From: the human T2T-CHM13v2.0 reference genome, Homo sapiens
DNA: 64,000 bases
Assembly (NCBI RefSeq): GCF_009914755.1
Contig: NC_060931.1
Strand: one strand, 5' to 3'
This document shows, piece by piece, positions 36,261 through 64,000 of the stretch. The notes beneath the pieces were generated by a model. It saw nothing but the letters and a program-made list of their open reading frames with translations. It did not search any database and had not been told where the DNA came from. The translations under genes and the position numbers were made by a program. How positions within the stretch are numbered: the first letter of the stretch is position 1; every line of letters begins with the position of its first letter.

Positions 36261-36293
36261 TCACTGGGCCCTTAGCAATATACAAGTAGGCTC

Positions 36294-36580
<287 letters not shown>

Positions 36581-37150: not shown

Positions 37151-37660
<510 letters not shown>

Positions 37661-38121: not shown

Positions 38122-38476
<355 letters not shown>

Positions 38477-40039: not shown

Positions 40040-40440
<401 letters not shown>

Positions 40441-42444: not shown

Positions 42445-42873
42445 TAGGTATTGAGAAGACATGCAGGAAATGGGAAAAGAGCTGCCTTACACTTTGTGAG
42501 GTTTACCTTGTGTTCCATGAAAGGTGAACTTACAGACGGAGGTATGACCTTGGGTGGCACCAAGACAGGTAGATCTCTGCACTCTTACTCCCAGACCCAA
42601 GGCTTATATACCATAGGGAAAAGCATATGTGCTTCAGCAAGACAATTAAAGGCAATCCTCTAGCACAGGCAGGAATGGTATATGTGTCATAGCCTGTAAT
42701 TTGTGCAATAACATCAAGGCCGCTTTGGTCTAAGGGCAGGATCCATGGTGAGTTAAACATTCTTACATAAGAGAAGTAAATAAAGTAGAATTCTTGGAGG
42801 TATTCCCAGGACTGGGGTTAATCAGAAGTCAACATGGTGGATTGAAGTCTGAGATGTCACTGTCAACTCCACA
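42445..42873 (-). mobile_element. ERV1 (MER4-group)-like LTR remnant
   Basis: ggggttaatcagaagtcaacatggtggattgaagtctgagatg resembles the reverse 5' end of MER4-group LTRs; family uncertain. Confidence 0.45.
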
Positions 42874-43257
42874 CCTAGATCTTGGATGCTGATTAAGTAG
42901 GAACCTGGGAGCAGGATTAGAGTCAACAGCCAATCTTCTGCCAAGCTCCTACTTCACTTAGGCCAAGGGATGCGCTGGCAGTAAATGAGGTAGGGTCAGA
43001 GTATTCACAGCCCACTTCCCACTGTGGGTCCTCTTGACTTCCCTTGTACTCCTTCTCCATGCAAAGTGACCTTTTTCATAACATGTTCCACTTCTGGCTT
43101 CTGATGACAGCTCCTGCACATCCCCCAGCCTGCGCTATCTCGTGTGGCTTCCCAGCCTGCAAGTTTCAAATTGTATTTGGTGCCTTTCTTAAACTTCCTT
43201 GAAGTCTTCTTATTTGGGAGCCCCTTCTGTTTCTCCAGGTCCCTGACTGACACACTA

Positions 43258-43395
<138 letters not shown>

Positions 43396-43399
43396 CTAT

Positions 43400-43585
43400 T
43401 TAAGGTTCTCAACAGGGCCATTCTACCTCCTAGGAAGCATTTTTGAAATGAGGAGTTTTTCAGTTGTCACAATGAATCCTAGACTTCACTGGCATTTGGG
43501 GTAGAGGCCAGGGGGCTGGACACCCTGCAATGGGTAGAGATCCTGCACGGTGAGAAGTGTAGGTGCCCCACATCCCAGTTTTCAA
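43400..43585. mobile_element. MER20/MER20B-like hAT end
   Basis: ggttctcaacagggccattctacctcctagg...gttgtcacaatg...actggcatttggggtagaggccaggg; a possible opposite end (gttgagagttattg) lies near 45170-45183. Confidence 0.55.
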
Positions 43586-44569
43586 CAGACTCATTGGAAT
43601 AAATCCACAGAACTATAAATAAGGAGTACTTCAGTACATAATGATACTGAAAGTTTTTATGGGATGAAAAATAAAGGGTCCAGGGATTCAGGACAAGCTC
43701 GTTGCAGAGGTGGACGCTGGCTTCTTAATTCTACACATTGTGTCTATTATTGAATATGGTGTCTATGGAGTATTGTGTCTAGTGAGTATTTTATAACCCA
43801 TCCAACTACAAAGTTAATTGGCTTTAGTACAGAGTTACAATCACTACACAAACAGTGCAACAATGCAAAGGCATTTTAAATCACCTTAGTCAAATAGGAA
43901 CATTCTTAGAAGCAAACATTATTTTTAGTGCAAACACATGAAACATAGAGGTCTTAATAAAGTTTATCAAAAGCATTGTTTTAAAACATTTTATAGTGTT
44001 TCCTATATGCTTCACAATTATAGCACCAGAACAAGAAATCTACATGGTAAACTTTAAGTATTGAAATTATTTCCTGGAGGGAGGAATCTGTGTTTTTTCG
44101 GTCCTTTTCTGACACTGCCCCCAGGATCTTATCATACAACTTCTCTAGAGACCTATTTCGGTTTCTGTTTCAAAGAGCTGTATTCCTCATTAAGTATCAG
44201 AGGTTACAGTTTACAAGGCATTTATTAAGCACTGGAGACTGAGGGTACACCTTGTCAGGTGGTAGGATCCCAGGGACACTTCATTCCCCCCATCCATGTC
44301 ATAATTTGTTTCACGCCATGCTTAAAAAGAAGAAGCCACACCTGGCTATCAGTGGAGAATCTCACACATTTTCTCCTCTCAATCTGTGATCCACCTTGGT
44401 ACGCATCCTGTATTTCAAATGGAGTGTGTCCCCATTTTCTTTTCATTTTCAAAATAAAACTAATCTATTATTACTTAATCTCAGGCTTTATTCTAAGGTT
44501 CTTCTGTATTATCTGCTCTTCCCTTTTCCTATATTTTTTATACGGAACTATTTCTGGTCTGCTTTTTAA

Positions 44570-44893
<324 letters not shown>

Positions 44894-45209
44894 TAAACCC
44901 AGTTTTACTCTTTACACATAGGAAGAAGCTTCTGACTTCATCACAGATGTCAGTGCCCTAGCTGCAGACCACCTGGCAAGCAGGACCTGAGCAGTGACAC
45001 GCTGAAGGACAGATAACTGGATTATAAGTTCATTCCTTTATTTAGCCTATATATTGAAACTTTTAAAGTGGTATATGCATATACGTTTTATCACCTATGA
45101 ATTTAATTTAAATTAGGAAAGGAGCATTAAAATAATTTGCCAAAATAAGGAGGTGTAGGTTCTGGTACAGTTGAGAGTTATTGTCTATTTCAACACATGT
45201 ATCTCTTTT

Positions 45210-46162
45210 TTAAAAATTTATTTTATGTTTATTTCAATCGTTTTTGAGGAACAGGTGGTTTGGGGTTACATGGGTAAGTTCTTTAGTGGTGATTTCTGAG
45301 GTGTCGGTTCACCCATCACCTGTGCAGTATACACTGTACCCCATGTGTAATCTTTTATCCTTCATCCCCCTCCCAGCCTTCCCCCCAAGTCCCCAAAGTC
45401 CATTATATCATTCTTATGCCTTTGCACCCTCATAGCTGAGCTCCCACTTAAAAGCGAGAACATACGATACTTGGTTTTCCATTCTTGAGTTACTTCACTT
45501 AGAATAATGGTCTCCAACTCTGTCCAGGTTGCTGTGAATGCCATTGTTTCATTCATTTCTTATGGCTGAGTAGTATTCCATGGTGTATATATACCACATT
45601 TTCTTTCTCTACTCCTTGGTTGATGAACATTTAGGCTGGTTCCATATTTTTGCAATTGTGAGTTGTACTGCTATAGGCGTGCGTGCCAGTGTCTTTTTCG
45701 TATAATGACTTATCTTCTGCTGGGTAGATACACAGTAGTGGGGTGGCTGGATCAAATGGTAGATCTACTTTTAGTTCTTTAAGGAATCTCCACACTGTTT
45801 TCCATAGTGGTTATACTAGTTTACATTCCTACAAGCAGTGTAGAAGTGCTCCCTTTTCACCATATCCATGCCAACATCTATTATTTTTTGATTTTTTAAT
45901 TATGGCCATTTGTGCAGGAGTAAGGTGGTATTGCATTGTGGTTTTAATTTGCATTTCCCTGATCATTAGTGATGTTGAGCATTTTTTATATGTTTGTTGG
46001 CCATTTGTATACCTTCTTTTTAAAATTTTCTATTCATGTCCTTAGCCCACTTTTTGATGGGATTATTTGTTTTTTTCTTGCTGATTTGTTTGAGTTCCTT
46101 GTACATTCTGGATAGTAGTACTGTGTCAGATACATAGTTTGCAAATATTTTCTCCCGCTTTG
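45210..46162 (-). mobile_element. L1PB-type 3' fragment
   Basis: ggaacaggtggtttggggttacatgggtaagttctttagtggtgatttctgag (L1PB1-like 3' end); TSD caacacatgtatctctt / caacacatgcatctctt. Confidence 0.92.
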
Positions 46163-46846
46163 ACAACACATGCATCTCTTGATTTCCATTTCTTTTCAAG
46201 AAAATAGTGACTTGCTTATGAAAGGCATATACCAATCATAAACTGAGCTGGAACTCTCAGCGGGGTCTTTATCCTCCCTGCCCTGGTTCTTGACACTCCC
46301 CTCCCTGCTGTGGCTATAAAGCTTCAGGCCCAGGGAGTAGCCGGTGTGTCTCTTATGCCAATTCCTCTTATGTGACTCTTTCAGCAATTTAACCTTTCTT
46401 TTTCTATTTTCTTAAAGCATTAAATGGAGACCTATAAATGTTACTTCATGGATAGCTGCAAAGATTAAATGAATTTATATTGGAAAGTTGTTTAAAACAG
46501 CCCAGCTGGTAACAAGAACTGTGTAAGTATGACCAATTGTTTCTGTTTGGTCCATTGATCTACTTATTCTGTCTCCACATCCATGTGGGGTATAGTCATC
46601 AGAATTACTAAGACTTTATAATAAGTGCCATCTAGTTAGACAGAAATGTTCCTCTTCATGATTGTCTTGTTAGTCTTGGTGTTTTAATGCTTTCATAATA
46701 TTTGCTCCTACCTATTTTACTAATTAATATATGCAGAAACTCACAACTCACACAGTACAGATCACATAAAATATCATCTTCATCCTTCCCACCCTATTTC
46801 CCCGAAGGTTATGACATGCACCTGTTGAGTATATATGTTCTCCAGG

Positions 46847-47359
<513 letters not shown>

Positions 47360-49629
47360 TAGGATCTTTAATGCCAAGGATGTAAAACTAATGGATGTGG
47401 GGAGATTTTTAGCTAAGAAATGAAAGGTTTTATTCTGGATCTTGGCCTTTACACATTGCAATTATTTTGCTGAAGTTCATTCATGTATTAATCGCGATGA
47501 GTACTGAGACCCTATCTTGTGTAAAGGTAAGTATGGAAAAGTACTCATCCTTGAGTCTTCTGGGCTGGTGGGCACGGCCGACACTTAAGTGAATAACTGA
47601 TGTATAAAACACTAAGTGTGATCACAGATATAGGTCCAGGGGCTGCGGAACAGGAGCCGGAGCCATGGAGAGGAGCAAAGGAGATGACAGGAGGAAGCGC
47701 AGGCTTGGAAAATCCTTGGTAGAGAGCACAGATTTAGAGGAGAAGGCAGACCAGGAGTTCCCCCACTAAAGGGCATCCTAAACAGAAGGAAGGAGACAAA
47801 GGCAGACAGAGGACCATGGAAGGCCATGACGGTGCCTGAAAGCAGTCACGATCCCAGCGTCACAGACCAGAGTCAGGGCTGTCAGAGAGGCCGCCCAGGG
47901 CACGAAGGAACGTGCTCGCTGCACAGAGCGACTTTACATTTAAATTCTTTCTTTTGGGCAATTAAGGGACCACAGAGGACATGAGGCTGAGGTGCAGCTA
48001 CTCCAGGGTCCCTGCACCTGCAGATATGGGCCCGAGATGGCAGCAAAACGGGGAGCAGGAGGACCCACGGGAGGGTGGATGAACCCTGGATTCTGCAAAG
48101 TCACAGTCGTCATGTCTCACAGTTGCTGGCAGGGACTGCGTGAGCGTGTGGGTCCCCCGGCTCTCTCTGTGCCAGACAACCATACACGTGGGAAGAGCCA
48201 TCACTTACCACTCTGCAAACCACATTAAGTGAGGGCCTGTGGCTTCCGACAGTTGCTTTCCTTCATGTTGCTCTGATGGAACCACCAGGGACATCAAGCC
48301 CAAGCCCTTGGGCTCATTAGCATGGTGCTGGGACAAGTCCCCCAAACAAACGGGCACAGGTTCCAGGCTATTTTTATTTCCATCCGACTCAGCACAGCCT
48401 AATAACCCTTGGTGTGCAATGAAAAACACCACACTTGCGTGCAAGAGCCTATTGATGTCCTGTAATATCAGGGTAGGCAGCTACCTGCTCTCTTCCAGTG
48501 CTTACTGTTGGGCTGGAAGAATGATACTGGAAACAGTGAGCCAACTCTGTGATGTAAGCCTCTCAGCAGGGAGATCTGTGCAATTCATGCATTACAAATG
48601 CACAATCAGGGAGCTTTCTCATGACAAAAAGGAATCAAATCCTGTCTATTATTGAGAAGTCCTCCTTTAGGTGAGCAGCAAAGCGCAGGCGGCTTTGCAA
48701 AGCAGCAGCATGCTGTTAGCAAGGTCTGGAGGGCCACACCTCTGGAAAGGATGTTTGTCATGATACAAACATATAAACTAACACCATGGATAAGCAATTG
48801 ATTCTTCAAAGAAGAGCCTTTCTCATGAAAATCCTGAAATAATATATGGAGTTTAGGGGGAATGAACAGAACTGCAAGTGGATATAAGCTCTTCCATCTT
48901 GCCAGTTTTCCCTTATGTAATAATTTCCTTCTATTGACATAAGGAATAATGTTTCATAGCCTACTGCTTTTCCTCCCCAAGCCTCATTGCACTTTTGCAA
49001 TGCCAGGAAACTCTAATCAGTACACTCTACCCTCTGGTGTCCACACTCAAAAAGCACATCACCCTGTTTTTTTCCCTCCAACATTAGCATGTGTACCAGG
49101 CATGTGGATGAAAATTATTAGCTACTAGGGGGATTGTATTGTTTGCTTAAAACTGTTGATTTTTCTGTTTTCAAGGGATCGAGATTTTAGACTAATTTAA
49201 CTAGCTGCATTTTTCCCTTGTATCACACAGGGAAGTTGAAGAAAGACGAAAGCCCCCTCTCTTTTCCCCAGCAGTAAGACAACGGTGTCCTCTTTTACTC
49301 TCATTTGAAGACATCCTAGAACATAACTTATGTGAAGGCTTAGTATAAAATATGGGCACAAACAGGATCCAACATAATAAAATGTTTTTAGCGGAGGAAA
49401 ATGATATCTGGCATTTGTTTCAAATCATAGTGGTAGTGAAATGGATGAAACGAGATTGCCGAAGCCTTGATAATTATACAGCTGGGTCATGGGTACAACC
49501 GGCTTATTGCCTAATTCCCTCCACTTTTCCGTATGTTTGGAAATTTCCAGGAATCAAGTTTTTCCCCATCTTAGTCTGATGCAGACTGAGCTACTATGTC
49601 TGAAGGATAAAGATGTGACATTCTAACAT

Positions 49630-49850
49630 GTGAACCAGGGCAGTGGAAGGAATACGGCTTTAGAAATCAGAAACACGTGAATTCTCACCCTGCTTCGAAC
49701 TCTCGCTGACTGCGAGGCCTTCGGAGGGTCACTCCATCTCTCTTCATCTAAGCTAGTTTCCATATTTGTAAAATGAGAATAATGAAACCTCCCACACAAG
49801 GTTATTCCGGGGATAAAGAAAGGGAAAATGCCTGGCACACAGAAGGCAAA
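49630..49850 (-). mobile_element. MIR SINE
   Basis: ggctttagaaatcagaa...gtttccatatttgtaaaatgagaataatgaaacctccc...gcctggcacacagaaggca. Confidence 0.75.
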
Positions 49851-50986
49851 TGACGTAGCTTCCCTTTCTCCTTTTTCCAGCAGCCCTCAGATAAATAAAT
49901 CCCAATGGTCAAAAAAATACAACCAGTATGAATAACTCATTAGGAATAACCCTGGCAAACCCTGATTGAGACATTTTGTTTGCTCTATTTCAGTCTTTCA
50001 TGGTGAAATTCATCATAACATCATTCCACCTTTATCAGCAAAAAACAAATAAAATAGCATGCATGCACATACATGATAAGCTACTATTTTATACTATATG
50101 TTGTCTTGATTGGTTTTATATTCAAGCGTTCCTGCTCAATAGCACTGATGTATCTCAGGCCTCTATTATTTCAAAGAGGATGGATTAAAGTCAATATGAA
50201 AGAACAGCTATTAATGCCATACTATCTTTATATAATACAGTTCATCTGGCAATTTCCAGAGTTTGGCCCATGGGTAATTCACTTATTGGGAATGGTTTGA
50301 GTGAACACTACAAATACAGTTTCCCATACCTTCAATTAACCAAATGATGTGAAGAATTATCTGTGCTAATTTAAATTTTCTGTTAAACTAAGCATTAAAC
50401 AGAGGGCTGTCTTTGTTTATAGTGGATTTTAATGAAGGAAACTGACTTAGCTATTTTCCTTAAGAATTTTGCATGACCTCATTAATTAATTATGTCATTC
50501 AGGAAAAAAAATCTTAGAGAAGCAAATATAGAAGTTGATGGAAAATTTGACAGCATGTATATTAGAGGCAAGCCTTTTGCCAATTAGCATGTCATCTAAC
50601 TGATCACATAAAACACTTAAAATTTGTCAGGACCTTTTAAAAATGAACAAAAATGTCATAAAATAATAGATGTATCACAACTATCTTCTGAGAAATAAAT
50701 GCATTTATTTGTCTCACTTTTTAAAGGAGAAAATCAAACCAAGGCTTAAGGTTTTCTTCCATATAATTAATTTGTGACCGAGCCAGGATTCAGAGCCAGG
50801 TGGTCTGACTGCCTAAGAAGCTCTTTCTGCCACTCACACCCTGCCAATCTCTGTACACAGTGAACGACACAGTCCACAATTACCTGATACCTCGGTATGG
50901 GGCTCTAGGGAAACTTTCTTCTCTTTTGCTGCCTTACCTAAATTCCTGATAGTACACAGTGAACGGCACAGTCCACAATTACCTGA

Positions 50987-51318
<332 letters not shown>

Positions 51319-51691
51319 CCATAGTTCTTTTTTTAAGTTGTCCAAATAATTGGGCATTTTGCAAAGCTACCTTTAAGAAGATGCCACTTGAAGGAGGAAT
51401 AAACACTGACTTGATTAATTCATCTAACTCTATCAGACACAGGAACACTGATTTGTTATTAAATGAAGTATCATCAAAAGAAGATAAATAACCAATGGTC
51501 CATGGCAACCTAGCTCTCAGTCAGGTTTAAATTTTTGAAAAAACAAAATACTGTGCTTAATTCCAAATAAGAATAAAAAATATAAATAATGGGCCAAAGA
51601 CTTTTAAAACTATAATTTGAACATTCTCGAAAATTATACTTTATTTTCAGACTCTGGAGTCCACAGTTTAACTCTTGAAAAGTAGTCACTA

Positions 51692-51782
51692 GAGCATGCT
51701 TGTATCAAAACATCTTATGTACCCCATAAATATATACTAGGTGCCCAAAAAATAAAAAAATTAAAAACTTTAATAAAAAGAA
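51692..51782 (+). mobile_element. Short L1MA-type 3' end
   Basis: catgcttgtatcaaaacatcttatgtaccccataaatatata plus A tail; degenerate TSD gaaaagtagtcactaga / gaaaaatagccaccaga. Confidence 0.8.
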
Positions 51783-52958
51783 AAATAGCCACCAGAAAAC
51801 ACTCTTCATTGAATTAGTCCTCTTAATTGATTTTTTGACTTTTATATTTTATTTCTAAGTCGATATGTTTTAAAAATAATGATTATGCAGGCTTTCCATT
51901 CAGAATATGGAAATCATCTGGAATTTGGTTTTAGGGGACTCTCTCTTGACCCAGCCGTGCCCTTCACTATTTTACAGTCCAATTATCTTCCTCCCACGGG
52001 GGCTGGAGCCCTGTGCATTACTTATGGGACAGGCTCTTAGATGTGTGGCATTGACATCTTTGTGGCTGGGTTTTTATCTGTCTCATAAAAGAGGTGTGTG
52101 CATGCCTGTGTCTGTGTCTGTGTCTGTGTGCATTTGTGTAAGTGCACGGGAGATCAAACCTCAATGTAATTTGACAATTCTCATAGGTTAATTTCCAATC
52201 ATCAGACTTTAAAGCAGTGAATTAAGCCTCTGGTGGCCCAATTTACTAAATTTCCAACAGTCAACATCTAGTCTCCAAGTGTCCTTCAGACCTAAGACCC
52301 GCCCGGCGCCGAGGCTGATCCCGTGGGCACCTGTTTGTGGGCTTAGCGGCATCTCTGCTTCTGGCCTTTATCCCCCCACCTGACACTCAGCAGCTGCTGT
52401 CTGGGAAGAGGAGGGCCTGTGCAGCAGCCCGGAAGAAACCCCCACACTCATCCCCCTGTGCTACGTGCCTCGGGTTCGTGTTAATCCGACTTTGGTCACC
52501 TCAGCCTCAACCACACCTGTGCTCCTGCCAAAGCCACCCTCCCTGCAGACACCAGCTGCCCTCCAATGCCGGGGCCACTGGGCCCTTTCCCAATTCAGGT
52601 TACTTGTCTGCTATGAGCCTGCCTTTTCTGCTTTCTTAGAGGTAGCTTTCTCCTGGATTCTAACAGCATCTTCTTCCCATCCTTTTTTCCAGGCCTTCCC
52701 TGAGGCCAGAAGCCTGTAAACATGGGAGTCACCCAGCTTGTTCTCCAGCCCTCTCCTCTTATTACACTGCCCATTGCTTCTGGGTAATCTCTCAATTCTT
52801 ATTACTCCAAGAATCAACAATAGAATAATAACCTCAAAATACAAACACCTCCACCACAGGATTGCTGTGTCAAGCCGATGCCTCCTCCCACAGTGGCCTG
52901 TGTTCAGCACAAATGTTGACACCCCTAAGGGCATCCTGCAGCTGCCCCTTCCCTGCTA

Positions 52959-53338
<380 letters not shown>

Positions 53339-53967
53339 CTCTTACACTGCTCTCCTTCTTTCCAGCAACATTACTGCTTTTTGGAAAATACCGAAATGGA
53401 AGCAGAAAAACAGAAATCTCATGTGTCTGCTTCCAATTTTCAAATGACTCCCCATGACCTTAAAAAAAGTCATCTGAGGCCTAAGCCCCATGGTGCCCTG
53501 CCCATCTCCGAGGGTCATTCTGAATGGCTTTGCCCCACATGCACGAGTCTCCAGGCCCACATACCTCCCTGAATACTCTGAGCTCTCCCTGATGCTGCTG
53601 CTTCTCTGATAACCATGGGGTTGTTGCCTCCACCTGAGATAGCTTTCTCCTCCTTCTCAAGGTTATCTCCCATTAACTCTTCAAGAATCATCCTAATCAT
53701 CGAATCTCCCAGAAAACTCTCCCTGACACCCTTGAAGCTGAATGAAGTGTCCCTCCTCTCGCTCCCATGGGCTCCTTTGCATTTTCTCAGATAACAATAA
53801 GATAAGGTGATGTGTTTGACTTGAAGGCAAGGACTGCTTTATTTATGCAGTACCATGTATTGAAGCCCTAGTACTTGTGAAACGATTAATATATAGGTTT
53901 AAAAAAACTAATCAATGTGTCTTCCTATTAGTTATTGGATATAAATTTCTTACCATGTGCCTCCAGC

Positions 53968-54185
53968 CCTGTGCTGCCCAATATGGTAGCCACTAGCCCC
54001 ATGTGGCTGGCTATTTAAATTTAAAATAGATGAAGGTTAAATAAAATTTAAAATTGAGTTCCTCAATCTCACAGGCCTCATTCCAAGCACTCAACAGCCA
54101 TATGGGGCAAGTGGCTATTGGATTGGATGGTATAGATAGACAGCCTTTCTGTCACCAGAGAGTGCTAACCAACTGCACTATTCTA
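53968..54185. mobile_element. MER3 hAT-Charlie MITE
   Basis: ctgtgctgcccaatatggtagccactagccccatgtggct...atttaaatttaaa...gcactcaacagccatatgg. Confidence 0.8.
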
Positions 54186-54721
54186 GACTCTTCATGGGAC
54201 AGACACAGCTCATTTATTTGCTCACATGCCTGTCTCTCCCCAGACTGACACTCAAAAGCATTTCTGTATCCCATGGTGTCAGCCTTGCATCAGGCCATGG
54301 TTGGTATCGAGTAAAAGTTTGTTATAGATGAATGAATAAAATCTTTATTGTACAATATCCACTATGATTTATCTTCCCTGTTCAGGAAGGTGACCTTGCC
54401 CTTCTACATGAGACTCTCACTTTCTTCGCTCCTACTCTTGTCTCTGCCAAACTCTAGCACCCTTGAAGGTCCTGCTCAGGAGCCCCTTCCCACACACCCC
54501 TCCCACCACTTAAGCTGCCTCACTCACTCCATTCGCAATGGCAGTTTCCCATGTGAATGCCTGCAGGGCTGACCGCTGCATGCCCCTCAGCTTGGTGGGT
54601 GTTCTTCGTGGCATAGAGCACATGCGTGTTAACCTGGCTCCAGGGCACAACAGCAGAGGGCTCTGTTCAGTAGGGACAAGTCCATTTAATTGCAATGTGG
54701 CATCATTGTAAAAAAATCTGA

Positions 54722-55071
<350 letters not shown>

Positions 55072-55693
55072 TCACAGAAGTGTGAAGGTGAGGCTTAGAA
55101 GAATGTGAGGGTCTCCAACAGGAAAAATTACGGGTATTCTGGGCCTGCTTAAGGCCAGTGGGATACCAAGGCGGCTTCTTAGGAGGATAAAACAACTCAC
55201 CTCCTGAAGCCCTCATGCAGGCCAGTCAGAAGACATCCTTGGCCCCCAGGAACTTGCCCCATTCCCTGAGGAAAACCCAGTCCCTGAGTAAAACCTGAGT
55301 CCAACTCAGGGCCTCTATGCCACTGATGTCGGTGGAACACAGGACTCAGGCTTCTCCAAGGAGCTCTAGGGGCTGAGTGACAGGCAGGTGTATTTATACC
55401 ATTGGCCTGGTCCTAATTTGTGCCTTTTGCCATTATACCTTGATGGACAATTTGCTTACAATTTCTGCTCTCGGGGGTGGGGGTACTAGGACCATGGTGT
55501 AACTGCTTACGTAGTGGTATTCAGTAGGGCCTGGCCTGTGCACCCGGCCAGTGAGGACAGCAAAGAGGACAGAGCTCCACTTCACTGCTGGTTGTGTTTT
55601 CCTTGGGCCCTTCCTGTTTTGTTCTTACTGGGGGGAATGTTGGAATGGAATGTGGGCACTCAGGCTGTATTGTTTTCACCCTGTATGGCAGCC

Positions 55694-55773
55694 AGTGATG
55701 GGAGGTGTCCCTGCTTGCTCCCAGGGCCCTCTAAGAGTGATGGGAGGTGTCCCTGCTTGCTCCCAGGGCCCTC
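55694..55773. repeat. Two-copy tandem duplication, period 42 bp
   Basis: agtgatgggaggtgtccctgcttgctcccagggccctc occurs identically at 55694-55731 and 55736-55773. Confidence 0.95.
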
Positions 55774-57206
55774 ACAGCCTTGCCCCTTCTTCCGGTCTAT
55801 TTCATCTCTGCCTTGTTGGAGCTGGTTTAAGTGGCAGTGATGTCTGTCCTTGCAGCTGCTGCTCATCACAAGCAGCTATGATTACAGGTAAGATAGTGAC
55901 GATGGTGAGGATGGTGTGTCATGATAATGCTATGGAAATTCAGATGCAGGAACAGTCACCCATTTAGGGAGTTGAGACAGGTAGATGAGGTTGCTGCTTT
56001 GGAGGTGACAGCATTAGAATGGGACCTGAAAGGAGGGGTGCATTTTGAGAGGAAGCTCTTGTAAGGAAAAGGCATTTGAGGATGAGACGCTGCAAGGTCT
56101 GCAGAACCACTTTGTCCTAATGGAGATTCCCTCCCTGGCCAGTCCTGTTCCTGTCTGTGCAACGTGCTTGCGGTGCAGGCCCTGACAACACAACTGACTC
56201 CAAGTGGCTGGGCCATGTGACCAGTGCTGGATCAACCAGAAACCCTGAATGAGATTTCACATGTAGACCCTGGGAGAGAGCATGCCTCTGTCTTCCTCTC
56301 TCGTTAGGAAGTGTAAAACTTCATGAGCTTAGAGCAGAAACTACCTTTGCTATCTGCTTGAGATTAACACCCACAGAGGAAAGTAAATCTGAGAGTTAGG
56401 GAGACAGACAGAAAGAGTTTTGGGAATATCATGTCAGCATGTCAGCACCACATCCCAGATAAGAGTGAAGTCCCACAGCCTCTGGTCTTCAGTTCTAAAG
56501 AACAATAGGTTACTTTAGTAGAGGTAGTGGTTTGCTATACAATTTGTGCCTTTTTTTTTCTCTGTAGGTCGTCGTGGAATGTGTCTATCACTGAGAGCTG
56601 AAAGAAAACTGACCAAGACAAGTTCAATGGCCATGAAATGAACCATGAGCAAATGTCCAGAGGTGGGAAGGCATGGGGTGGATTCCGGGCACTTGACGCT
56701 GCCCAGCTTGCTGATGTGCAAAAGGTCTGCTGGAGACTCACAGAAGAGCGTAGCAGGGAAGAGCTCTGGTCAGATGGCAGGACGGGCCAGTGCAATGATT
56801 GCGAGGGCCCCAACAATCAAGACCAGGAGGTTCTGCTGTGTGGTGAGCACATTGTCAGCCTGAACGGGGAGTGGGACAGAGGTGTATGGGGGTACAGGGT
56901 AGATGAGTGTCCCCTCCCTGCAGCAGGGCTCTGTTTGTCCTACCATTGAACAACTCGCTGGGGTTTCCCCACTCTGATCAGCCCAGGACTCTGCTTGCTA
57001 GCTGGGTTGCAAAAGCTCCTGGACCCTTTTCTTCTCAAACCAATTATCTCTTCCTGGGCTTTGCGTTTGCTCTAGGGCTCTTCTCATTCTTGGATGCTCT
57101 AGCTGTGCTCTGTCCCTGGAGGCTTCCCGAGACTCATGAGTATCAGCTCCTGACATGATTCTCCTTCACTGTCTTTTTTATTAGGGTTTCATGCAGACTC
57201 TCATGC

Positions 57207-57275
57207 ACCTGCCGTCGGAAGATTTGAACTTTCTTCTAGGACACCTAATATCCACAGTACTCCAGGTGGGTCCTA
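57207..57275 (-). mobile_element. Short HERV-E-like pol module at the array's left boundary
   Basis: acctgccgtcggaagatttgaactttc...cacagtactccaggtgggtcc, same as the right end of the long copies. Confidence 0.85.
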
Positions 57276-57888
57276 AGGATCTGAGGATCCACGATGGGGG
57301 TCCTAAGCCAGGGGTGGAAGAGGGGCTGGCTCTCAGTCCCCGCCTCGCAGGAGGTGCCTCCCCCCGCTGCAATGGGGGTCCTAAGAGCCAGAGGGGGAAA
57401 AGGGAGTGGCTCTCAGTCCCTGCCTCGCGGGGGGTGCCTCCCCCACTTGCGATGGGGGTACTAACAACCAGGGGCGGAAGAGGGGATAGCTCTCAGTCCC
57501 CACCCTCGTGGGGGGTGCTTCCACCTCCTGCGATGGGGGTCCTCAGAGCCAGGGGGGGAAGAGGGACTGGCTCTCAGTCCCTGCCTCGTGGGGAGTGCCT
57601 CCGCCCCCAGCGATAGGGATCCTAAGAGCAAAGGGGGGAAGAGGGGCTCGCTCTCAGTCCCCGCGTCGCGAGGGGTGCCTCCCCCCCTGCGATGGGGGTG
57701 CAAAGAGCGAGGGGGGGAAGGGGGACGTTCGCAGTCCCCGCCTCGGGGGGATTGCCTGCCCCCCTGCGATGGTGGTCCCAAGAGCCAGGGGGGGAAGAGG
57801 GGTTGGCTCTGAGTCCCCGCCTCGCGGGGGGTGCCTCCCACCCCGCGATGCAGGTCCCAACAACCGGGGGGAAGAGGGGATGGATCTC

Positions 57889-58490
57889 AGCCATCACAAA
57901 ATAGGGGGCCTTTATGTTCAGGTTTTGCCCAAGAATCAGCTTATTTGCTTCTTGTACTAGCAGGGCAGTTGCTGCCAAGGCCCTCAAATAGGGGGGCCAT
58001 CCTTTAGCAACTAAAAACCTAGTTGTTTAGAGACGTAGGCTACCGGCCTCAGCCAGGGCCCCACAGTTTGGGTTAAAAGTCCAGCTGCCATCTTTTCTCT
58101 CTCTGACGCATACAATGGAAAAGGCTTTGTCAGATCGGGTAGCCCCAGGGCTGGGGCTGCCAGAAGATTTTCTTGTAACTCATGAAAAACTTGCTGTTGT
58201 TGGGATCCCCATTTCAAAACTTCCATGTCCCCGCCCCCTTTGTGACCTCATACAAAGGCTTGGCTAATACTGCAGTTTGGGATCCACAGTCTACAAAATC
58301 CCACAGCTCCTAAGAATTCTCTCACCTGCCTTCTGCCCTTAAGCTCCGGTAGATTGCAAATAACCTGCTTTCTTTCTGTTCCCGAGCTGCCTTCGGACCC
58401 GTCGGATCGTAAATCCCACGTAAGGTACCTGCCGTCGGAAGATTTGAACTTTCTACTTGGACACCTAATACCCACAGTCCTCCAGGTGGG
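57889..58490 (-). pseudogene. Gammaretroviral (HERV-E-like) pol fragment, long copy 1 (RT thumb/connection), frameshifted
   Basis: ERKQVICNLPELKGRRQVREFLGAVGFCRLWIPN and WGSQQQQVFHELQENLLAAPALGLPDLTKPFPLY...RPVAYVSKQL, split across frames. Confidence 0.9.
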
Positions 58491-58798
58491 TCCTAAGGAT
58501 CCTAGGATCAACGAAGGGGGCCCTAAGCCGGTGGGGGAAGAGGGTCTGGCTCTCAGTCCCCGCCTCGTGGGGGGTGCCTCCCCCCTCTGCGATGGGTGTC
58601 CTAAGAGCCAGTGGGGGAACAGGGGCTGGCTCTCAGTCCCTACCTCGCGGGGGGTGCCTCCCCCACCCTGCGATGGGGGTACTAACAGCCAGGGGCGGAA
58701 GAGGGGATAGCTCTCAGTCCCCACTCTCGTGGGGGGTGCCTCCCCCTCCTGTGATGGGGGTCCTCAGAGCCAGGGGGGGAAGAGGGACTGGCTCTCAG

Positions 58799-58882
58799 TA
58801 ATCCCACGTAAGGTACCTGCCGTCGGAAGATTTGAACTTTCTACTTGGACACCTAAAACCCACAGTCCTCCAGGTAGGTCCT
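58799..58882 (-). mobile_element. Short HERV-E-like pol module (further copies at ~59662-59745, 61278-61361, 61666-61749 and 63945-64000)
   Basis: taatcccacgtaaggtacctgccgtcggaagatttgaactttctacttggaca...cacagtcctccaggt repeated, always preceded by ggctctcag. Confidence 0.9.
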
Positions 58883-60283
58883 AAGGATCTTAGGATCAAC
58901 GATGGGGGTCCTAAGCCAGGGGGGGAAGAGGGTCTGGCTCTCAGTCCCCGCCTCACGGGGGGTGCCTCCCACCTCTGCCATGGGGGTCCTAAGAGCCAGT
59001 GGGGGAACCAGGGGCTGGCTCTCAGTCCCTGACTCGCGGGGGGTGCCTCCCCCGTTGCGATGGGGGTAGTAACAGCCAGGGGCGGAAGAGGGGATAGCTC
59101 TCAGTCCCCACCCTCGTGGGGGGTGCCTCCCCCTCCTGTGATGGGGGTCCTAAGAGCCGGGGGGGAAGAGGGACTGGCTCTCAGTCCCTGCCTCGCGGGG
59201 GGTGCCTCCGCCCCCAGCGATGGGGGTCCTAAGAGCAAAGGGGAGAAGAGGGGCTCGCTCTCAGTCCCCGCGTCGCGAGGGGTGCCTCCCCCCCTGCGAT
59301 GGGGGTGAAAAGAGCCAGGGGAGGAAACGGGGAGGTGTGCAGGCCCCGCCTCGCGGGAATTGCCTCCCCCCCCTGCGATGGTGGTCCGAAGAGCCAGGAG
59401 GGGAAGAGGGTCTGGCTCTCAGTCCCCGCCTTGCGGGGGGTGCGTCCCCCCTCTGCGATGGGGTCCCTAAGAGCCAGTGGGGGAACCAGGGGCTGGCTCT
59501 CAGTCCCTGCCTCGCGGGGGTGCCTCCCCCGCTGCGATGGGGGTACTAACAGCCAGGGGCGGAAGAGAGGATAGCTCTCAGTCGCCACTCTCGTGGGGGG
59601 TGCCTCCCCCTCCTGCGATGGGGGTCCGCAGAGCCGGGGGGGAAGAGGGACTGGCTCTCAGTAATCCCACGTAAGGTACCTGCCGTCGGAAGATTTGAAC
59701 TTTCTACTTGGACAACTAACACTCGCAGTCCTCCAGGTGGGTCCTAAGGATCTTAGGATCAGCGATGGGGGTCCTAAGCCAGGGGGTGAAGATGGTCTGG
59801 CTCTCAGTCCCCGCCTCGCGGGGGGTGCGTCCCCCCTCTGCGATGGGGTTCCTAAGAGCCAGTGGGGGAACCAGGGACTGGCTCTCAGTCCCTGCCTTGC
59901 GGGGGTTGCCTCTCCCCCCCTGCGATGGGGGTACCAACAGCCAGGGGCGGAAGAGGGGATAGCTCTCAGTCCCCACCCTCGCGGGGGGTGCCTCGCCCTC
60001 CTGCGATGGGGGTCCTCAGAGCCAGGGCGGGAAGAGGGACTGGCTCTCAGTCCCTGCCTCGCGGGGGGTGCCTCCGCCCCCAGCGATGGGGTCCTAAGAG
60101 CAAAGGTGGGAAGAGGGGCTCGCTCTCAGTCCCCGCGTCGCGAGGGGTGCTCCCCCCCTGCGATGGGGGTGCAAAGAGCCAGGGGGGGAAGAGGGGTTGG
60201 CTCTGAGTCCCCGCCTCGTGGGGGGTGCCTCCCCCCCCGCGATGGGAGTCCCAAGAGCCAGGGGGGAAGAGGGGATGGATCTC

Positions 60284-60895
60284 AGCCATCACAAAATGGG
60301 GGGCCTTTATGTTCAGGTTTTGCCCAAGAATCAGCTTATTTGCTTCTTGTACTAGCAGGGCAGTTGCTGCCAAGGCCCTCAAATAGGGGGGCCATCCTTT
60401 AGCAACCCTGTCTAGTTGTTTAGAGACGTAGGCTACGGGCCTCAGCCAGGGCCCCACAGTTTGGGTTAAAAGTCCAGCTGCCATCTTTTCTCTCTCTGAC
60501 GCATACAATGGAAAAGGCTTTGTCAGATCGGGTAGCCCCAGGGCTGGGGCTGCCAGAAGATTTTCTTGTAACTCATGAAAAACTTGCTGTTGTTGGGATC
60601 CCCATTTCAAAAGTTCCGGGTCCCCGACCCCTTTGTGACCTCATACAAAGGCTTGGCTAATACTGCAATGTTTGGGATCCACAGTCTACGAAACCCCACA
60701 GCTCCTAAGAATTCTCTCACCTGCCTTCTGCCCTTAAGCTCCGGTAGATTGCAAATAACCTGCTTTCTTTCTGTTCCCGAGCTGGAGCTGCGTTGGGACC
60801 CGTCGGATCGTAAATCCCATGTAAGGTATCTGCCGTCGGAAGATTTGAACTTTCTAATTGGACACCTAACACCCACAGTCCTCCAGGTGGGTCCT
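60284..60895 (-). pseudogene. HERV-E-like pol fragment, long copy 2
   Basis: REFLGAVGFRRLWIPNIAVLAKPLYEVTKG, frameshift, then LLAAPALGLPDLTKPF...GWPPYLRALAATALLVQEANKLILGQNLNIKAPH. Confidence 0.9.
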
Positions 60896-62125
60896 AAGGA
60901 TCTTAGGAGCAACGATGGGGGGTCCTAAGCCAGGGGGGGATGAGGGTCTGGCTCTCAGTCCCTGCCTCGCGGGGGGTGCCTCCCCCCCTGTGATGGGGGT
61001 ACTAACAGCCAGGGGCGGAAGAGGGGATAGCTCTCAGTCCCCACCTTCGCGGGGGGTGCCTCCCCCTCGTGCGATGGGGGTCCTAAGATCCAGGGGGGGA
61101 AGAGGGACTGGCTCTCAGTCCCTGCCTCGCGGGGGGTGCCTCCCCCCCTGCGATGGGGGTACTCACAGCCAGGGGTGGAAGAGGGGATAGCTCTCAGTCC
61201 CCACTCTCGTGGGGGGTGCCTCCCCCTCCTGCGATGGGGGTCCTCAGAGCCGGGGGGGAAGAGGGTCTGGCTCTCAGTAATCCCACGTAAGGTACCTGCT
61301 GTCGGAAGATTTGAACTTTCTACTTGGACAACTAACACCCACAGTCCTCCAGGTGGGTCCTAAGGATCTTAGGATCAACGATGGGGGGTCCTAAGCCGGT
61401 GGGGGAAGAGGGTCTGGCTCTCAGTCCCCGCCTCGCGGGGGGTGCCTCCCCCCTCTGCGATGGGGGTCCTAAGAGCCAGTGGGGGAACCAGGGGCTGGCT
61501 CTCAATCCCTGCCTCGCGGGGGTGACTCCCCCCTCCTGCGATGGGGGTACCAACAGCCAGGGGCGGAAGAGGGGATAGCTCTCAGTCCCCACCCTCGTGG
61601 GGTTGCCTCCCCCTCCTGCGATGGGGGTCCTAAGAGCCTGGGGAGGAAGAGGGACTGGCTCTCAGTAATCCCACGTAAGGTACCTGCCGTCGGAAGATTT
61701 GAACTTTCTACTTGGACAACTAACACCCACAGTCCTCCAGGTGGGTCCTAAGGATCTTAGGATCAATGATGGGGGGTCCTAAGCCAGGGGGGAAGAGGGT
61801 CTGGCACTCAGTCCCTGCCTCGCGGGGGGTGCCTCCGCCCCCAGCGATGGGGGTCCTAAGAGCAAAGGGGGGAAGAGGGGCTCCCTCTCAGTCCCCGCGT
61901 CGCGAGGGGTGCCTCCTCCCCTGCGATGAGGGTGCAAAGAGCCAGGGGAGGAAAGGGGGAGGTTCGCAGTCCCCGCCTCGCGGGGATTGCCTCCCCCACT
62001 GCGATAGTGGTCCTAAGAGCCAGGGGGGGAAGAGGGGTTGGCTCTGAGTCCCCGCCTCGCGGGGGGTGCCTCCCCCCACTGCGATGGGAGTCCCAAGAGC
62101 CAGGGGGGAAGAGGGGATGGATCTC

Positions 62126-62732
62126 AGCCATCACAAAATGGGGGGCCTTTATATTCAGGTTTTACCCAAGAATCAGCTTATTTGCTTCTTGTACTAGCAG
62201 GGCAGTTGCTGCCAAGGCCCTCTAATAGGGGGGCCATCCTTTAGAAACCTGTCTAGTTGTTTAGAGACGTAGGCTACCGGCCTCAGCCAGGGCCCCACAG
62301 TTTGGGTTAAAAGTCCAGCTGCCATCTTTTCTCTCTCTGACGCATACAATGGAAAAGGCTTTGTCAGATCGGGTAGCCCCAGGGCTGGGGCTGCCAGAAG
62401 TTTTTCCTTTAACTAATGAAAGACTTGCTGTTGTCGGGATCCCCATTTCAAAGTTTCCGGGTCCCCGCCCCCTTTGTGACCTCATACAAAGGCTTGGCTA
62501 ATACTGCAATGTTTGGGATCCACAGTCTACGAAACCCCACAGCTCCTAAGAATTCTCTCACCTGCCTTCTGCCCTTAAGCTCCGGTAGATTGCAAATAAC
62601 CTGCTTTCTTTCTGTTCCCGAGCTGCGTTCGGACCCATGTCTTATTGTAAATCCCACGCAAGGTACCTGCCGTCGGAAGATTTGAGCTTTCTTCTTGAAC
62701 ACCTCATACCCACAGTCCTCCAGGTGGTTCCT
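62126..62732 (-). pseudogene. HERV-E-like pol fragment, long copy 3 (most divergent copy)
   Basis: One frame reads LRNHLEDCGYEVFKKKAQIFRRQVPCVGFTIRHGSERSSGTERKQVICNLPELKGRRQVREFLGAVGFRRLWIPN. Confidence 0.9.
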
Positions 62733-62872
62733 AAGGATCTTAGGATCCCCGATGGGCGTCCTAAGCCAGTGGGGGAAGAGGGGCTGGCTCTCAGTCCCCG
62801 CCTTGCGGGGGGTGTCTCCCCACCCTGTGATGGGGGTCACAAGAGCCAGAGGGGGAAGAGGGGCTGGCTCTC

Positions 62873-63478
62873 AACCACCACGAAATGGGAGGCCTTTATG
62901 TTCAGGTTTTGCCCAAGAGTAAGCTTATTTGCTTCTTTTACTAGCAGGGCAGTTGCTGCCAAAGCCCTCAAATAGGGAGGCCGTCCTTTAGCAACCCTGT
63001 CTAGTTGTTTAGAGACGTAGGCTACCGGCCTCAGCCAGGGCCCCACAGTTTGGGTTAAAAGTCCAGCTGCCATCTTTTCTCTCTCTGACGCATACAATGG
63101 AAAAGGCTTTGTCAGATCGGGTAGCCCCAGGGCTGGGGCTGCCAGAAGATTTTCTTGTAACTCATGAAAAACTTGCTGTTGTTGGGATCCCCATTTCAAA
63201 AGTTCCGGGTCCCCGACCCCTTTGTGACCTCATACAAAGGCTTGGCTAATACTGCAAAGTTTGGGATCCACAGTCTACAAAACCCCACAGCTCCTAAGAA
63301 TTCTCTCACCTGCCTTCTGCCCTTAAGCTCCGGTAGATTGCAAATAACCTGCTTTCTTTCTGTTCCCGAGCTGCGTTCGGACCCGTCTGATCGTAAATCC
63401 CATGTAAGGTACCTGCCGTCGGAAGATTTGAACGTTCTACTTGGACACCTAAAACCCACAGTCCTCCAGGTGGGTCCT
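62873..63478 (-). pseudogene. HERV-E-like pol fragment, long copy 4
   Basis: GFCRLWIPNFAVLAKPLYEVTKG, frameshift, then APALGLPDLTKPF...LRALAATALLVKEANKLTLGQNLNIKASH. Confidence 0.9.
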
Positions 63479-64000
63479 AAGGATCTTAGGAGCAACGATG
63501 GGGGGTCCTAAGCCGGGGGGGAAGAGGGTCTGGCTCTCAGTCCCCGCCTCGCGGGGGGTGCCTCCCCCCTCTGCGATGGGGGTCCTAAGAGCCAGTGGGG
63601 GAACCAGGGGCTGGCTCTCAGTCCCTGCCTCGCGGGGGGTGCCTCCCCCCCCCGCGATGAGGGTAGCAACAGCCGGGGGTGGAAGAGGGGATAACTCTCA
63701 GTCCCCACCCTCGCGGGGGGTGCCTCCCCCTCGTGCGATGGGGGTCCTAAGAGCCAGGGGGGGGAAGAGGGACTGGCTCTCAGTCCCTGCCTCGCGGGGG
63801 GTGCCTCCCCCCCTGCGATGGGGGTACTAAGAGCCAGGGGTGGAAGAGGGGATAGCTCTCAGTCCCCACTCTCGTGAGGGTTGCCTCCCCCTCCTGCGAT
63901 GGGGGTCCTCAGAGCCAGGGGGGGGAAGAGGGTCTGGCTCTCAGTAATCCCACGTAAGGTACCTGCTGTCGGAAGATTTGAACTTTCTACTTGGACAACT

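What the first reader, a model, noticed from the sequence alone, without database searches (positions are those of the whole stretch)
57200..64000. Chimeric macrosatellite: a retroviral reverse-transcriptase fragment co-amplified with a GC-rich 80-bp satellite
Seen: nine blocks of ~80-bp units (about 2-10 units each) alternate with ten copies of the same pol segment, four of ~600 bp and six of ~55-90 bp. All are in one orientation, with no LTR, gag, env or integrase in the window. Long copies start at about 57889, 60284, 62126 and 62873, giving irregular periods of ~2.4, 1.8 and 0.75 kb. Established: the peptides are class I ERV RT thumb/connection motifs, best matching HERV-E from memory. Inference: a small piece of ERV was captured into a satellite and the hybrid became the unit of tandem amplification (a VNTR of VNTRs). 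This is likely length-polymorphic and poorly described by standard repeat annotation. It is the best candidate for an under-described element here.
Basis: partly seen in the sequence, partly recalled or inferred. Interest (0 to 1): 0.85.

Follow-up and report, generated by a model that had tools for sequence, protein, structure and literature searches.

The report
Retroviral pol fragment satellite array
This is a real tandem array in which a dead piece of an endogenous retrovirus reverse-transcriptase gene alternates with runs of a GC-rich 80-bp satellite, but it is one copy of an old repeat family found at ten or more human loci, and this locus appears to have been catalogued in 2008.

Summary
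In the window, four ~625-bp and six 55-88-bp copies of one segment (P) alternate with nine blocks of an 80-bp, 69% GC unit (S), all in one orientation. P is the antisense strand of a gammaretroviral RT thumb/connection domain (Pfam RT_RNaseH_2; MLV RT residues 314-422) and is broken by stops. The array runs past the window end to 65743.

It is not a local invention. The same P+S composite, with the same two breakpoints, occurs on chr13 (five loci), chr3, chr12 and in an inverted paralogue 4 Mb away on chr7. At Xiao/DA duplicon loci, P sits intact inside gag-pro-RT-RNaseH-IN.

The composite therefore formed once from a HERV-E-like provirus embedded in satellite, spread by segmental duplication, and was remodelled locally by unequal exchange.

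Warburton 2008 lists a 7q36.1 "HERVE" megasatellite (1.7 kb x 5, in an SD), which I take to be this locus. Li 2009 names the related SATR-HERVE-SATR element.

S is at best a remote GC-rich relative of SATR1. Interest is low to moderate.

The parts
57207..64000 (.). The composite array as far as the window shows it. It continues to window coordinate 65743 outside the window.
57207..57279 (-). Array start: partial P piece (positions 553-625 of the long unit). The same truncation is present in the chr7 paralogue.
57292..57890 (.). S block 1: 7 full 80-bp monomers plus 1 truncated
57875..58499 (-). Long P copy 1 (pol sense on the minus strand; RT thumb/connection; stops and frameshifts)
58512..58799 (.). 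S block 2: 3 full monomers plus 1 truncated
58800..58887 (-). Short P copy (positions 538-625 of the long unit)
58900..59662 (.). S block 3: 9 full monomers plus 1 truncated
59663..59750 (-). Short P copy
59759..60285 (.). S block 4: 6 full monomers plus 1 truncated. Together with the short P before it, it overlaps the RefSeq 'enhancer' 59636-60151 of the hub table.
   Evidence: hub annotation
60270..60900 (-). Long P copy 2 (ORF 60047-60640 minus matches Pfam RT_RNaseH_2, E 2.9e-13)
60913..61278 (.). S block 5: 4 full monomers plus 1 truncated
61279..61366 (-). Short P copy
61379..61666 (.). S block 6: 3 full monomers plus 1 truncated. With the short P it forms the 388-bp period seen by TRF.
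61667..61754 (-). Short P copy
61768..62127 (.). S block 7: 4 full monomers plus 1 truncated
62112..62737 (-). Long P copy 3. The segment 61768-62995 is duplicated at 64515-65743 (97.6% over 1230 columns).
62750..62873 (.). S block 8: 1 full monomer plus 1 truncated
62859..63483 (-). Long P copy 4 (ORF 62837-63229 minus: RT_RNaseH_2 E 6.3e-13; MLV RT residues 314-422, E 2.2e-36)
63363..63469 (+). Exon 1 of lncRNA LOC100134040 (hub table). It lies antisense inside long P copy 4 and ends at CCAG|GTGGGT, a donor-like motif found 8 times in the window's P pieces.
   Evidence: hub annotation
63496..63945 (.). S block 9: 5 full monomers plus 1 truncated
63946..64000 (-). Short P copy, cut by the window end (complete at 63946-64033)
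33982..64000 (.). Part of an inverted segmental duplication of at least 57 kb (window 33982 to 91420) that carries the array. The partner is at chr7:155,206,001-155,264,000; the flanks are 97.6-98.4% identical.

Best explanation
The region is a non-coding composite satellite. Its unit is a ~600-bp internal fragment of a HERV-E-like gammaretroviral pol gene (end of the RT palm, thumb, connection; read on the minus strand) fused on both sides to a GC-rich 80-bp satellite (S). The fusion arose once, from a provirus embedded in SATR-type satellite of the kind that bounds Xiao/DA core duplicons. An intermediate form is still visible at chr3:8.67 Mb. The composite was amplified in tandem and carried to at least ten loci by segmental duplication. 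It reached 7q36.1 before an inverted duplication of at least 57 kb copied it to chr7:155.2 Mb. The chr7 lineage also made an 88-bp 'short P' module by an internal deletion. The number of S monomers per block and of modules per array then drifted through unequal exchange or replication slippage. Shown: anatomy, pol identity, shared breakpoints, paralogues, SD. Inferred: order of events, mechanism of amplification, and absence of a sequence-specific function beyond incidental use as a lncRNA start and splice donor.
For: Pol identity: Pfam RT_RNaseH_2 matched 2 of 3 minus-strand ORFs. PDB search gave 4 hits, the best being 4mh8_A RT residues 314-422, E 2.2e-36. Proviral source: at L014 (chr2:71.03 Mb, the 2p-71 Xiao locus in Li 2009's table), P positions 18-614 lie between RVT_1 and RNase_H in a colinear Gag_p30-RVP-RVT_1-RNase_H-rve series; 5 of 21 ORFs had Pfam hits. 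Multi-locus family: the genome search listed 55 matches, with 40 of 295 first-look candidates scored. Full-length P with junctions is present at chr7:151.21, chr7:155.23, chr13:44.60/45.69/62.96/63.06/79.93, chr3:8.67 and chr12:9.39/31.0. P alternating with S was mapped in 9 fetched loci. Single origin: 32 of 36 aligned P copies share both breakpoints, while 3 proviral copies and the array-edge copies read through into pol. Tree: the 8 chr7 copies form one clade (SH-aLRT 100) inside a chr13+chr7 clade (98); chr3 and chr12 copies lie next to the proviral copies. Intermediate: at chr3:8.67 each unit also keeps a ~520-bp piece of L014 1400-1919, and the array merges into the provirus at both ends. 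Remodelling: chr7a has 5 long, 6 short and 2 end pieces, while chr7b has 3 long, 4 short and the same 2 end pieces. The flanks are 97.6-98.4% identical, against 86-96% inside the array. There is an internal 1.23-kb duplication at 97.6%. Non-coding: one-frame translation of a long copy has 9 stops.
Against: No reference HERV-E or Dfam model was available, so the family name HERV-E rests on the literature's RepeatMasker labels and not on a test here. The tree root is weak (86), 16 of 33 inner branches are unsupported, and the three proviral rows were not one side of a branch, so the order chr3/chr12 then chr13 then chr7 is tentative. P copies differ from the proviral copies by about 9-10%, more than the SD flanks differ, so gene conversion or faster decay in arrays may distort dating. 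Only 40 of 295 candidate places were scored, so the locus count is a lower bound, and a closer source copy may exist. RefSeq marks an enhancer and a lncRNA first exon inside the array (hub table), so 'no function' is not shown.
Confidence: 0.85

Rival explanations
1. One reading: a local event at 7q36.1 captured a small ERV piece into a pre-existing satellite, producing a locus-specific, under-described macrosatellite.
For: The short-P module (88 bp plus about 3.6 S monomers; the 388-bp period) was seen only on chr7: all 6 short-P rows are on chr7. The locus is not among the 30 DA/Xiao loci tabulated by Li 2009.
Against: Both P/S breakpoints are shared with arrays on chr13, chr12 and chr3 (32 of 36 copies). 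The chr7 copies nest inside the chr13 clade. A 7q36.1 HERVE megasatellite in an SD is tabulated in Warburton 2008.
Confidence: 0.05
2. The array is an assembly artefact: a collapsed or expanded repeat in T2T-CHM13.
For: GC-rich tandem repeats are prone to HiFi read dropout, as stated for macaque in 10.1101/2025.08.04.668424.
Against: The copies differ by 4-6% and carry distinct S-block lengths. A paralogous array 4 Mb away has the same end truncations. The BAC-based hg18 assembly is reported with a 10.1-kb, 5-unit array at 7q36.1.
Confidence: 0.01
3. The array is an exapted regulatory element. The antisense pol piece provides a reiterated transcription start and splice donor for lncRNA LOC100134040, and the GC-rich S blocks act as enhancer or promoter DNA. 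This is compatible with the origin story above.
For: The hub table places exon 1 (63363-63469) inside long P copy 4, ending at CCAG|GTGGGT, and an enhancer at 59636-60151 over a short P plus S block. The donor-like motif recurs 8 times in the window. In S blocks CpG o/e is 0.40 and GC 69%, against 0.24 and 44% in the rest of the window.
Against: CpG o/e of 0.40 is below the usual CpG-island threshold and fits a methylated, decaying repeat. Assigning a transcript to one of 12 near-identical donors is a mapping choice. No paper mentions the lncRNA (0 papers). There is no conservation test.
Confidence: 0.15
4. The 80-bp S unit is retroviral sequence (a leader or gag-proximal repeat of the provirus) and not a satellite relative, so the whole composite is ERV-derived.
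For: A 60-bp S-like piece lies about 1 kb upstream of Gag_p30 in L014 (1347-1407). Matching S-like runs lie at the same relative place in L020 and L021, the latter with 6.4 units.
Against: That piece sits within 63- and 76-bp-period repeats that carry the SATR1 primer sites, outside recognisable gag. The S profile hits the 76-bp arrays beyond the integrase fragment 19 times (10 at E<0.1, best 1.5e-4), against 3 short hits (best 0.028) in the reversed control. This points to a satellite relationship.
Confidence: 0.12

Closest known systems
7q36.1 'HERVE' megasatellite of Warburton et al. 2008 (PMC2588610, Table 2D; passages seen)
   Same: Band 7q36.1, inside an SD, HERVE content, 1.7-kb unit x 5 copies. 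CHM13 has 5 long P copies in 8.5 kb, which is 1.7 kb per long copy.
   Different: The paper gives one table row and no anatomy. It gives 10.1 kb in hg18 against 8.5 kb here. This could be allelic length variation or different boundaries. The coordinate equivalence (hg18 149.36 Mb to T2T 151.21 Mb) rests on my recalled assembly offsets, not on a liftover.
SES = 'SATR-HERVE-SATR', the modified HERV-E that flanks Xiao and DA core duplicons (Li et al. 2009, PMC2700803, parts 1-3 of 4 read; Mohajeri et al. 2016, PMC5088589, passages)
   Same: P is 90-92% identical to the pol of the proviral copies at Xiao/DA loci (chr2:71.03, chr9:102.39, chr11:67.72 and others). At the 3p-8 Xiao locus the P+S array is continuous with such a provirus.
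   Different: The chr7 locus is not in the table of 30 DA/Xiao loci. It has no OR7E-type ORF or any Pfam-recognisable ORF nearby (0 of 58). It keeps only 600 bp of the provirus and lacks the 76-bp SATR1-type arrays. The founding paper (Ji and Zhao 2008, PMC3092482) was not held, so I could not see how much of this anatomy it already describes.
SATR1 / SATR1v / SATR2 mixed arrays (macaque T2T preprint 10.1101/2025.08.04.668424, passages; Hoyt et al. preprint 10.1101/2021.07.12.451456, passages)
   Same: The design is alike: variable-length GC-rich tandem blocks alternate with a conserved ~0.6-kb element. The S profile is remotely similar to SATR1-type 76-bp units.
   Different: SATR1 consensus primers (PMC3606032, supplement file 3) match nothing in the window at up to 3 mismatches. 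Whether S is what those authors call SATR1v could not be tested, because no Dfam library was available and the preprint supplements are closed.
LTR (MaLR) megasatellite arrays and other TE-derived tandem repeats (Warburton 2008, passages)
   Same: Fragments of retroelement internal sequence were amplified as tandem units, dispersed by SD, and then reshaped by unequal crossing-over at each locus.
   Different: The source here is an ERV1 pol fragment fused to a short-period satellite, giving two nested levels of repetition.

Membership tests
Gammaretroviral (ERV1) pol fragment | Translation matches the RT thumb/connection (RNase H-like) domain | tested here: met
   Pfam PF17919 E 6.3e-13 and 2.9e-13, above the cut-off. 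MLV RT 4mh8_A residues 314-422, E 2.2e-36.
Gammaretroviral (ERV1) pol fragment | The same DNA is colinear with gag-pro-RT-RNaseH-IN in a proviral copy | tested here: met
   L014 4554-5155 lies between the RVT_1 ORF (3881-4489) and the RNase_H ORF (5183-5623).
HERV-E (HERVE-int) specifically | Best match to the HERV-E internal consensus rather than other ERV1 families | not testable with these tools
   No Dfam/Repbase library was available. The label comes from Warburton 2008 and Li 2009.
SATR1 satellite (for the 80-bp S unit) | Carries the SATR1 consensus primer sites | tested here: not met
   0 and 0 matches in the window at up to 3 mismatches, against 9 and 16 in L014's 76-bp-period arrays.
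SATR1 satellite (for the 80-bp S unit) | Monomer-level homology to SATR1-type units | tested here: inconclusive
   nhmmer with the S profile gave 19 hits, 10 at E<0.1, best 1.5e-4, 17 on one strand. The reversed control gave 3 hits, best 0.028. Hits on a tandem array are not independent.
Xiao/DA core duplicon flank (SES) | Bounds an OR7E-bearing core; locus among the 30 listed | tested here: not met
   0 of 58 ORFs of 110 aa or more had a Pfam hit within window 1-57206 and 65744-74000. The table in Li 2009 lists only 7p-6.6 and 7q-97 on chr7.
Xiao/DA core duplicon flank (SES) | HERV-E part homologous to that of Xiao/DA loci | tested here: met
   P positions 18-614 are 90-92% identical at chr2:71.03, chr2:159.3, chr3:128.4/132.8, chr4:8.9, chr9:102.4/102.9, chr11:67.7 and chr13:40.6.
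Megasatellite in the sense of Warburton 2008 | Tandem array whose kb-scale unit contains interspersed-repeat fragments | tested here: met
   5 long P copies in 8.5 kb, with periods of 0.75-2.7 kb.
Megasatellite in the sense of Warburton 2008 | Identity with the tabulated 7q36.1 entry | tested here: inconclusive
   Band, SD flag, HERVE label, unit size and copy number agree. The coordinate conversion is recalled, not computed.
T2T-CHM13 'composite element' (Hoyt et al.) | Listed among the 19 curated composites | not testable with these tools
   The preprint's main text has 0 occurrences of HERVE or HERV-E.

The most novel reading that the evidence does not exclude
The P+S composite is the amplified core of the 'modified HERV-E' that forms the LTR-like ends of Xiao/DA duplicons. 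The chr7 arrays would then be orphan ends that travelled without a core. The same composite might be what expanded to megabase scale as the GC-rich 'SATR1v plus ~0.6-kb element' arrays of macaque subtelomeres. In that case one ancient provirus/satellite fusion would underlie both a major class of ape core-duplicon boundaries and an Old World monkey subtelomeric satellite. Its antisense pol piece would also supply reiterated lncRNA starts and splice donors.
Probability: 0.15. Interest if true: 0.5.

Novelty: already known. Interest (0 to 1): 0.22.

Why it matters
As found, it matters little. It is a correctly observed member of a dispersed, ERV-derived composite satellite, and this locus appears as one row in a 2008 catalogue.

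It has some practical value in three respects:
- The array lies inside an inverted SD pair of at least 57 kb at about 98% identity, 4 Mb apart on 7q36. That is the kind of architecture that mediates inversions.
- Module number differs between the two paralogues, so the array is a plausible multi-allelic VNTR that short reads will mis-map.
- An annotated lncRNA first exon and a RefSeq enhancer lie in near-identical repeat modules, so their placement needs care.

The shared-breakpoint evidence also gives a simple, testable history linking these arrays to the ends of Xiao/DA core duplicons.

Tried and rejected
2. Ji and Zhao 2008, the paper most likely to describe the SES anatomy, was not held under its DOI or its PMC id.
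3. I first took P to be what RepeatMasker calls SATR1, because the macaque preprint mentions a 'conserved 589-bp SATR1'. I dropped this after finding that the real SATR1 primer sites lie in 63/76-bp-period AT-richer arrays flanking the provirus and are absent from the window.
4. I looked for a target-site duplication at the array ends and saw none. The array starts at P position 553 and ends at P position 137, next to unrelated sequence.
5. Canonical G-quadruplex motifs (loops of 1-7): 0 in the array on either strand, so that idea was dropped.
6. window.fa carries no soft-masking, so NCBI's repeat mask could not be read for the array.
7. Literature searches that gave nothing specific: 'LOC100134040' found 0 papers. 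'HERV-E + pol + tandem + satellite + segmental duplication' found 2 papers, only Li 2009 being relevant. 'SATR1v / SATR-1' returned, among the 15 of 20 papers listed, one relevant paper, the macaque preprint.
8. I made no protein-database or structure-prediction runs. The domain identity was already clear from Pfam and the PDB sequence search.


Full report
OBSERVATION

The array is real and far beyond chance. A blastn of one long copy against the whole 64-kb window gave 10 hits, all on the + strand and all between 57209 and 64000.
- Four are long copies: 57875-58499, 60270-60900, 62112-62737 and 62859-63483, at 94.2-100% identity.
- Six are short copies of 55-88 bp: 57209, 58800, 59663, 61279, 61667 and 63946.
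- The short copies are all the last ~88 bp of the long unit.

TRF reported 14 rows for 55000-64000. Eleven of them are periods of 79-81 bp or multiples (157, 161, 388) within 57292-63945. A profile of the 80-bp monomer (S) found 51 monomer hits in nine blocks inside the window. Each block ends in a truncated monomer. The truncation is at model position 48 before a short P (6 of 6 over the whole array) and at 51-53 before a long P (6 of 6).

The window cuts the array. With the next 10 kb of the same chromosome, it runs from 57207 to 65743 in window coordinates. It then holds 5 long P, 6 short P, a 73-bp start piece, a 137-bp end piece and 12 S blocks.

WHAT P IS

The pol sense is the minus strand. 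Two of three minus-strand ORFs match Pfam RT_RNaseH_2 (E 6.3e-13 and 2.9e-13). The best solved relative is a murine-leukaemia-type reverse transcriptase, 4mh8_A, residues 314-422, E 2.2e-36. Every copy needs at least two frames, and one-frame translation of a long copy shows 9 stops, so nothing is coding.

A genome search placed P positions 18-614 at 90-92% identity in several loci that Li et al. 2009 tabulate as Xiao or DA duplicons: chr2:71.0, chr2:159.3, chr3:128.4/132.8, chr4:8.9, chr9:102.4/102.9, chr11:67.7 and chr13:40.6.

At chr2:71.03 (L014) this stretch lies in a colinear series of ORF fragments: Gag_p30, RVP, RVT_1, then P, then RNase_H and rve. Five of 21 ORFs had Pfam hits and all five are on one strand. 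P is therefore an internal piece of a provirus.

The name HERV-E comes from the literature's RepeatMasker labels. I could not test it against a reference.

A blastn of that 10-kb proviral locus against the whole window found only P (10 HSPs) and a 60-bp S-like piece (42 HSPs). None of 58 ORFs of 110 aa or more around the array had a Pfam hit.

WHAT S IS

S is an 80-bp unit with 69.3% GC and CpG o/e 0.40. The rest of the window has 44.2% GC and CpG o/e 0.24.

Published SATR1 consensus primers (PMC3606032, supplement file 3) match the window 0 and 0 times at up to 3 mismatches. They match the 76-bp-period arrays that flank the provirus in L014 9 and 16 times (array structure). S is therefore not classic SATR1.

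An S profile does hit those 76-bp arrays weakly: 19 hits, 10 at E<0.1, best 1.5e-4, 17 on one strand. A reversed control gave 3 short hits, best 0.028. I read S as a remote GC-rich relative of SATR1-type units. It may be the 'SATR1v' of the T2T papers, but that name could not be tested.

S arrays also occur without a listed P at chr9:77.05, 80.49, 42.19 and 140.35 Mb. In that search 40 of 140 candidates were scored.

A FAMILY, NOT A LOCAL EVENT

Full-length P with its junctions occurs at chr7:151.21 (this locus), chr7:155.23, chr13:44.60, 45.69, 62.96, 63.06 and 79.93, chr3:8.67, and chr12:9.39 and 31.0. Only 40 of 295 candidates were scored there, so these counts are lower bounds. In nine fetched loci P alternates with variable S blocks in the same relative orientation.

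I aligned 36 P copies. Thirty-two share both breakpoints:
- On one side, S ends at ...CTCAG and pol begins at (T/C)CACCAC.
- On the other side, pol ends at ...CCAGGTG and S-like GGTCCTAAGGATC... follows.
- The three proviral copies, and one array-edge copy on each side at chr3, read on into pol.

The fusion therefore happened once.

A quick ML tree puts the 8 chr7 copies in one clade (SH-aLRT 100) inside a chr13+chr7 clade (98). The chr3 and chr12 copies lie next to the proviral copies. The rooting is weak: support is 86, 16 of 33 inner branches are unsupported, and the outgroup is not one side of a branch.

At chr3:8.67 (the 3p-8 Xiao locus) the array is continuous with a provirus at both ends. 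Each unit there keeps an extra ~520 bp that matches L014 1400-1919. I take this as an intermediate form. The chr13 and chr7 units have lost that piece. This last step is inference.

THE CHR7 HISTORY

The array sits inside an inverted segmental duplication, not at its edge. Window 33982 to 91420 aligns to chr7:155,264,000-155,206,001 at 97.6-98.4% identity. Both ends reach the limit of what I fetched, so the SD is at least 57 kb.

Both arrays begin at P position 553 and end at P position 137, so the array predates the duplication. The partner has 3 long and 4 short P copies, against 5 and 6 here, and different S-block lengths. Alignments inside the arrays fall to 86-96%.

Within this array, 61768-62995 is repeated at 64515-65743 at 97.6% identity. 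The 88-bp short module was seen only on chr7.

Unequal exchange or slippage is the natural mechanism, but it is inferred. No target-site duplication is visible at the array ends.

WHAT IS IN PRINT

Warburton et al. 2008 (PMC2588610, passages only) list under 'Megasatellite arrays' the row: 7q36.1, 10.1 kb, 1.7-kb unit, 5 copies, SD, HERVE, chr7:149,361,474-149,371,533 in hg18. CHM13 has 5 long copies in 8.5 kb, which is 1.7 kb per copy. Band, SD status and content agree.

The coordinate conversion is from my memory of assembly offsets and of the position of ATP6V0E2. I therefore rate identity as very likely, not proven. The 10.1 kb versus 8.5 kb difference hints at length variation but may only reflect boundaries.

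Li et al. 2009 (PMC2700803, parts 1-3 of 4 read) name the 'SATR-HERVE-SATR' modified HERV-E at the ends of Xiao/DA. Their table of 30 loci has no 7q-150 entry. Mohajeri et al. 2016 (passages) use the same elements as 8p23.1 breakpoint markers. Ji and Zhao 2008 was not held, so I cannot say how much of the anatomy above is already described there.

Hoyt et al.'s preprint main text has no mention of HERV-E, and its supplement is closed. No paper mentions LOC100134040.

FUNCTION

The hub table puts exon 1 of lncRNA LOC100134040 (63363-63469, + strand) antisense inside long P copy 4. It ends at CCAG|GTGGGT, and that donor-like motif recurs 8 times in the window. A RefSeq enhancer (59636-60151) covers a short P plus an S block.

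These may be real by-products of a GC-rich repeat or mapping choices among near-identical modules. I give exaptation about 15%.

VERDICT

It is wrong in place and in novelty. This is an old, single-origin, multi-locus composite tied to the Xiao/DA 'modified HERV-E', and this locus has very probably been catalogued since 2008.

Noticed in passing
window 33982-64000 and beyond to 91420; partner at chr7:155,206,001-155,264,000 (L012, L013, L024-L027): Inverted segmental duplication pair of at least 57 kb at 97.6-98.4% identity, about 4.0 Mb apart on 7q36. Both ends reach the limit of the DNA fetched, so the true size is unknown. Such pairs can mediate inversions.
   Followed up: partly
L011 5100-7800 (window coordinates about 69100-71800, outside the window): Cluster of long stop-free stretches in several frames on both strands (15 ORFs of 110 aa or more within about 4 kb; none with a Pfam hit). 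This suggests a GC-rich or low-complexity stretch just downstream of the array.
   Followed up: no
L014 34-1188, 6571-8588, 9068-9973 (chr2:71.03 Mb): The HERV-E-like gag-pol remnant at this Xiao locus has no LTRs or env. It is embedded in 63-bp- and 76-bp-period tandem repeats that carry the SATR1 primer sites. This is a direct view of the 'SATR-HERVE-SATR' element.
   Followed up: partly
L015, L016, L022, L023 (chr13:44.6, 63.06, 45.69, 62.96 Mb): On chr13 pairs of long P copies are separated by only 48 bp of S (0.6 monomer), giving a ~665-bp period. At chr13:45.69 two P copies are rearranged (positions 359-624 joined to 1-456). The chr13:62.96 and 63.06 arrays are inverted relative to each other, about 100 kb apart.
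   Followed up: no
chr9:77.05, 80.49, 42.19, 140.35 Mb (not fetched): Multi-kb arrays of the GC-rich 80-bp S unit, at 82-87% identity to the window's S, with no P hit listed nearby. S may therefore exist as a satellite in its own right.
   Followed up: no
window 55694-55773: Perfect 42-bp tandem duplication (1.9 copies, 100% match) inside the RefSeq enhancer 55432-55933, just upstream of the array.
   Followed up: no
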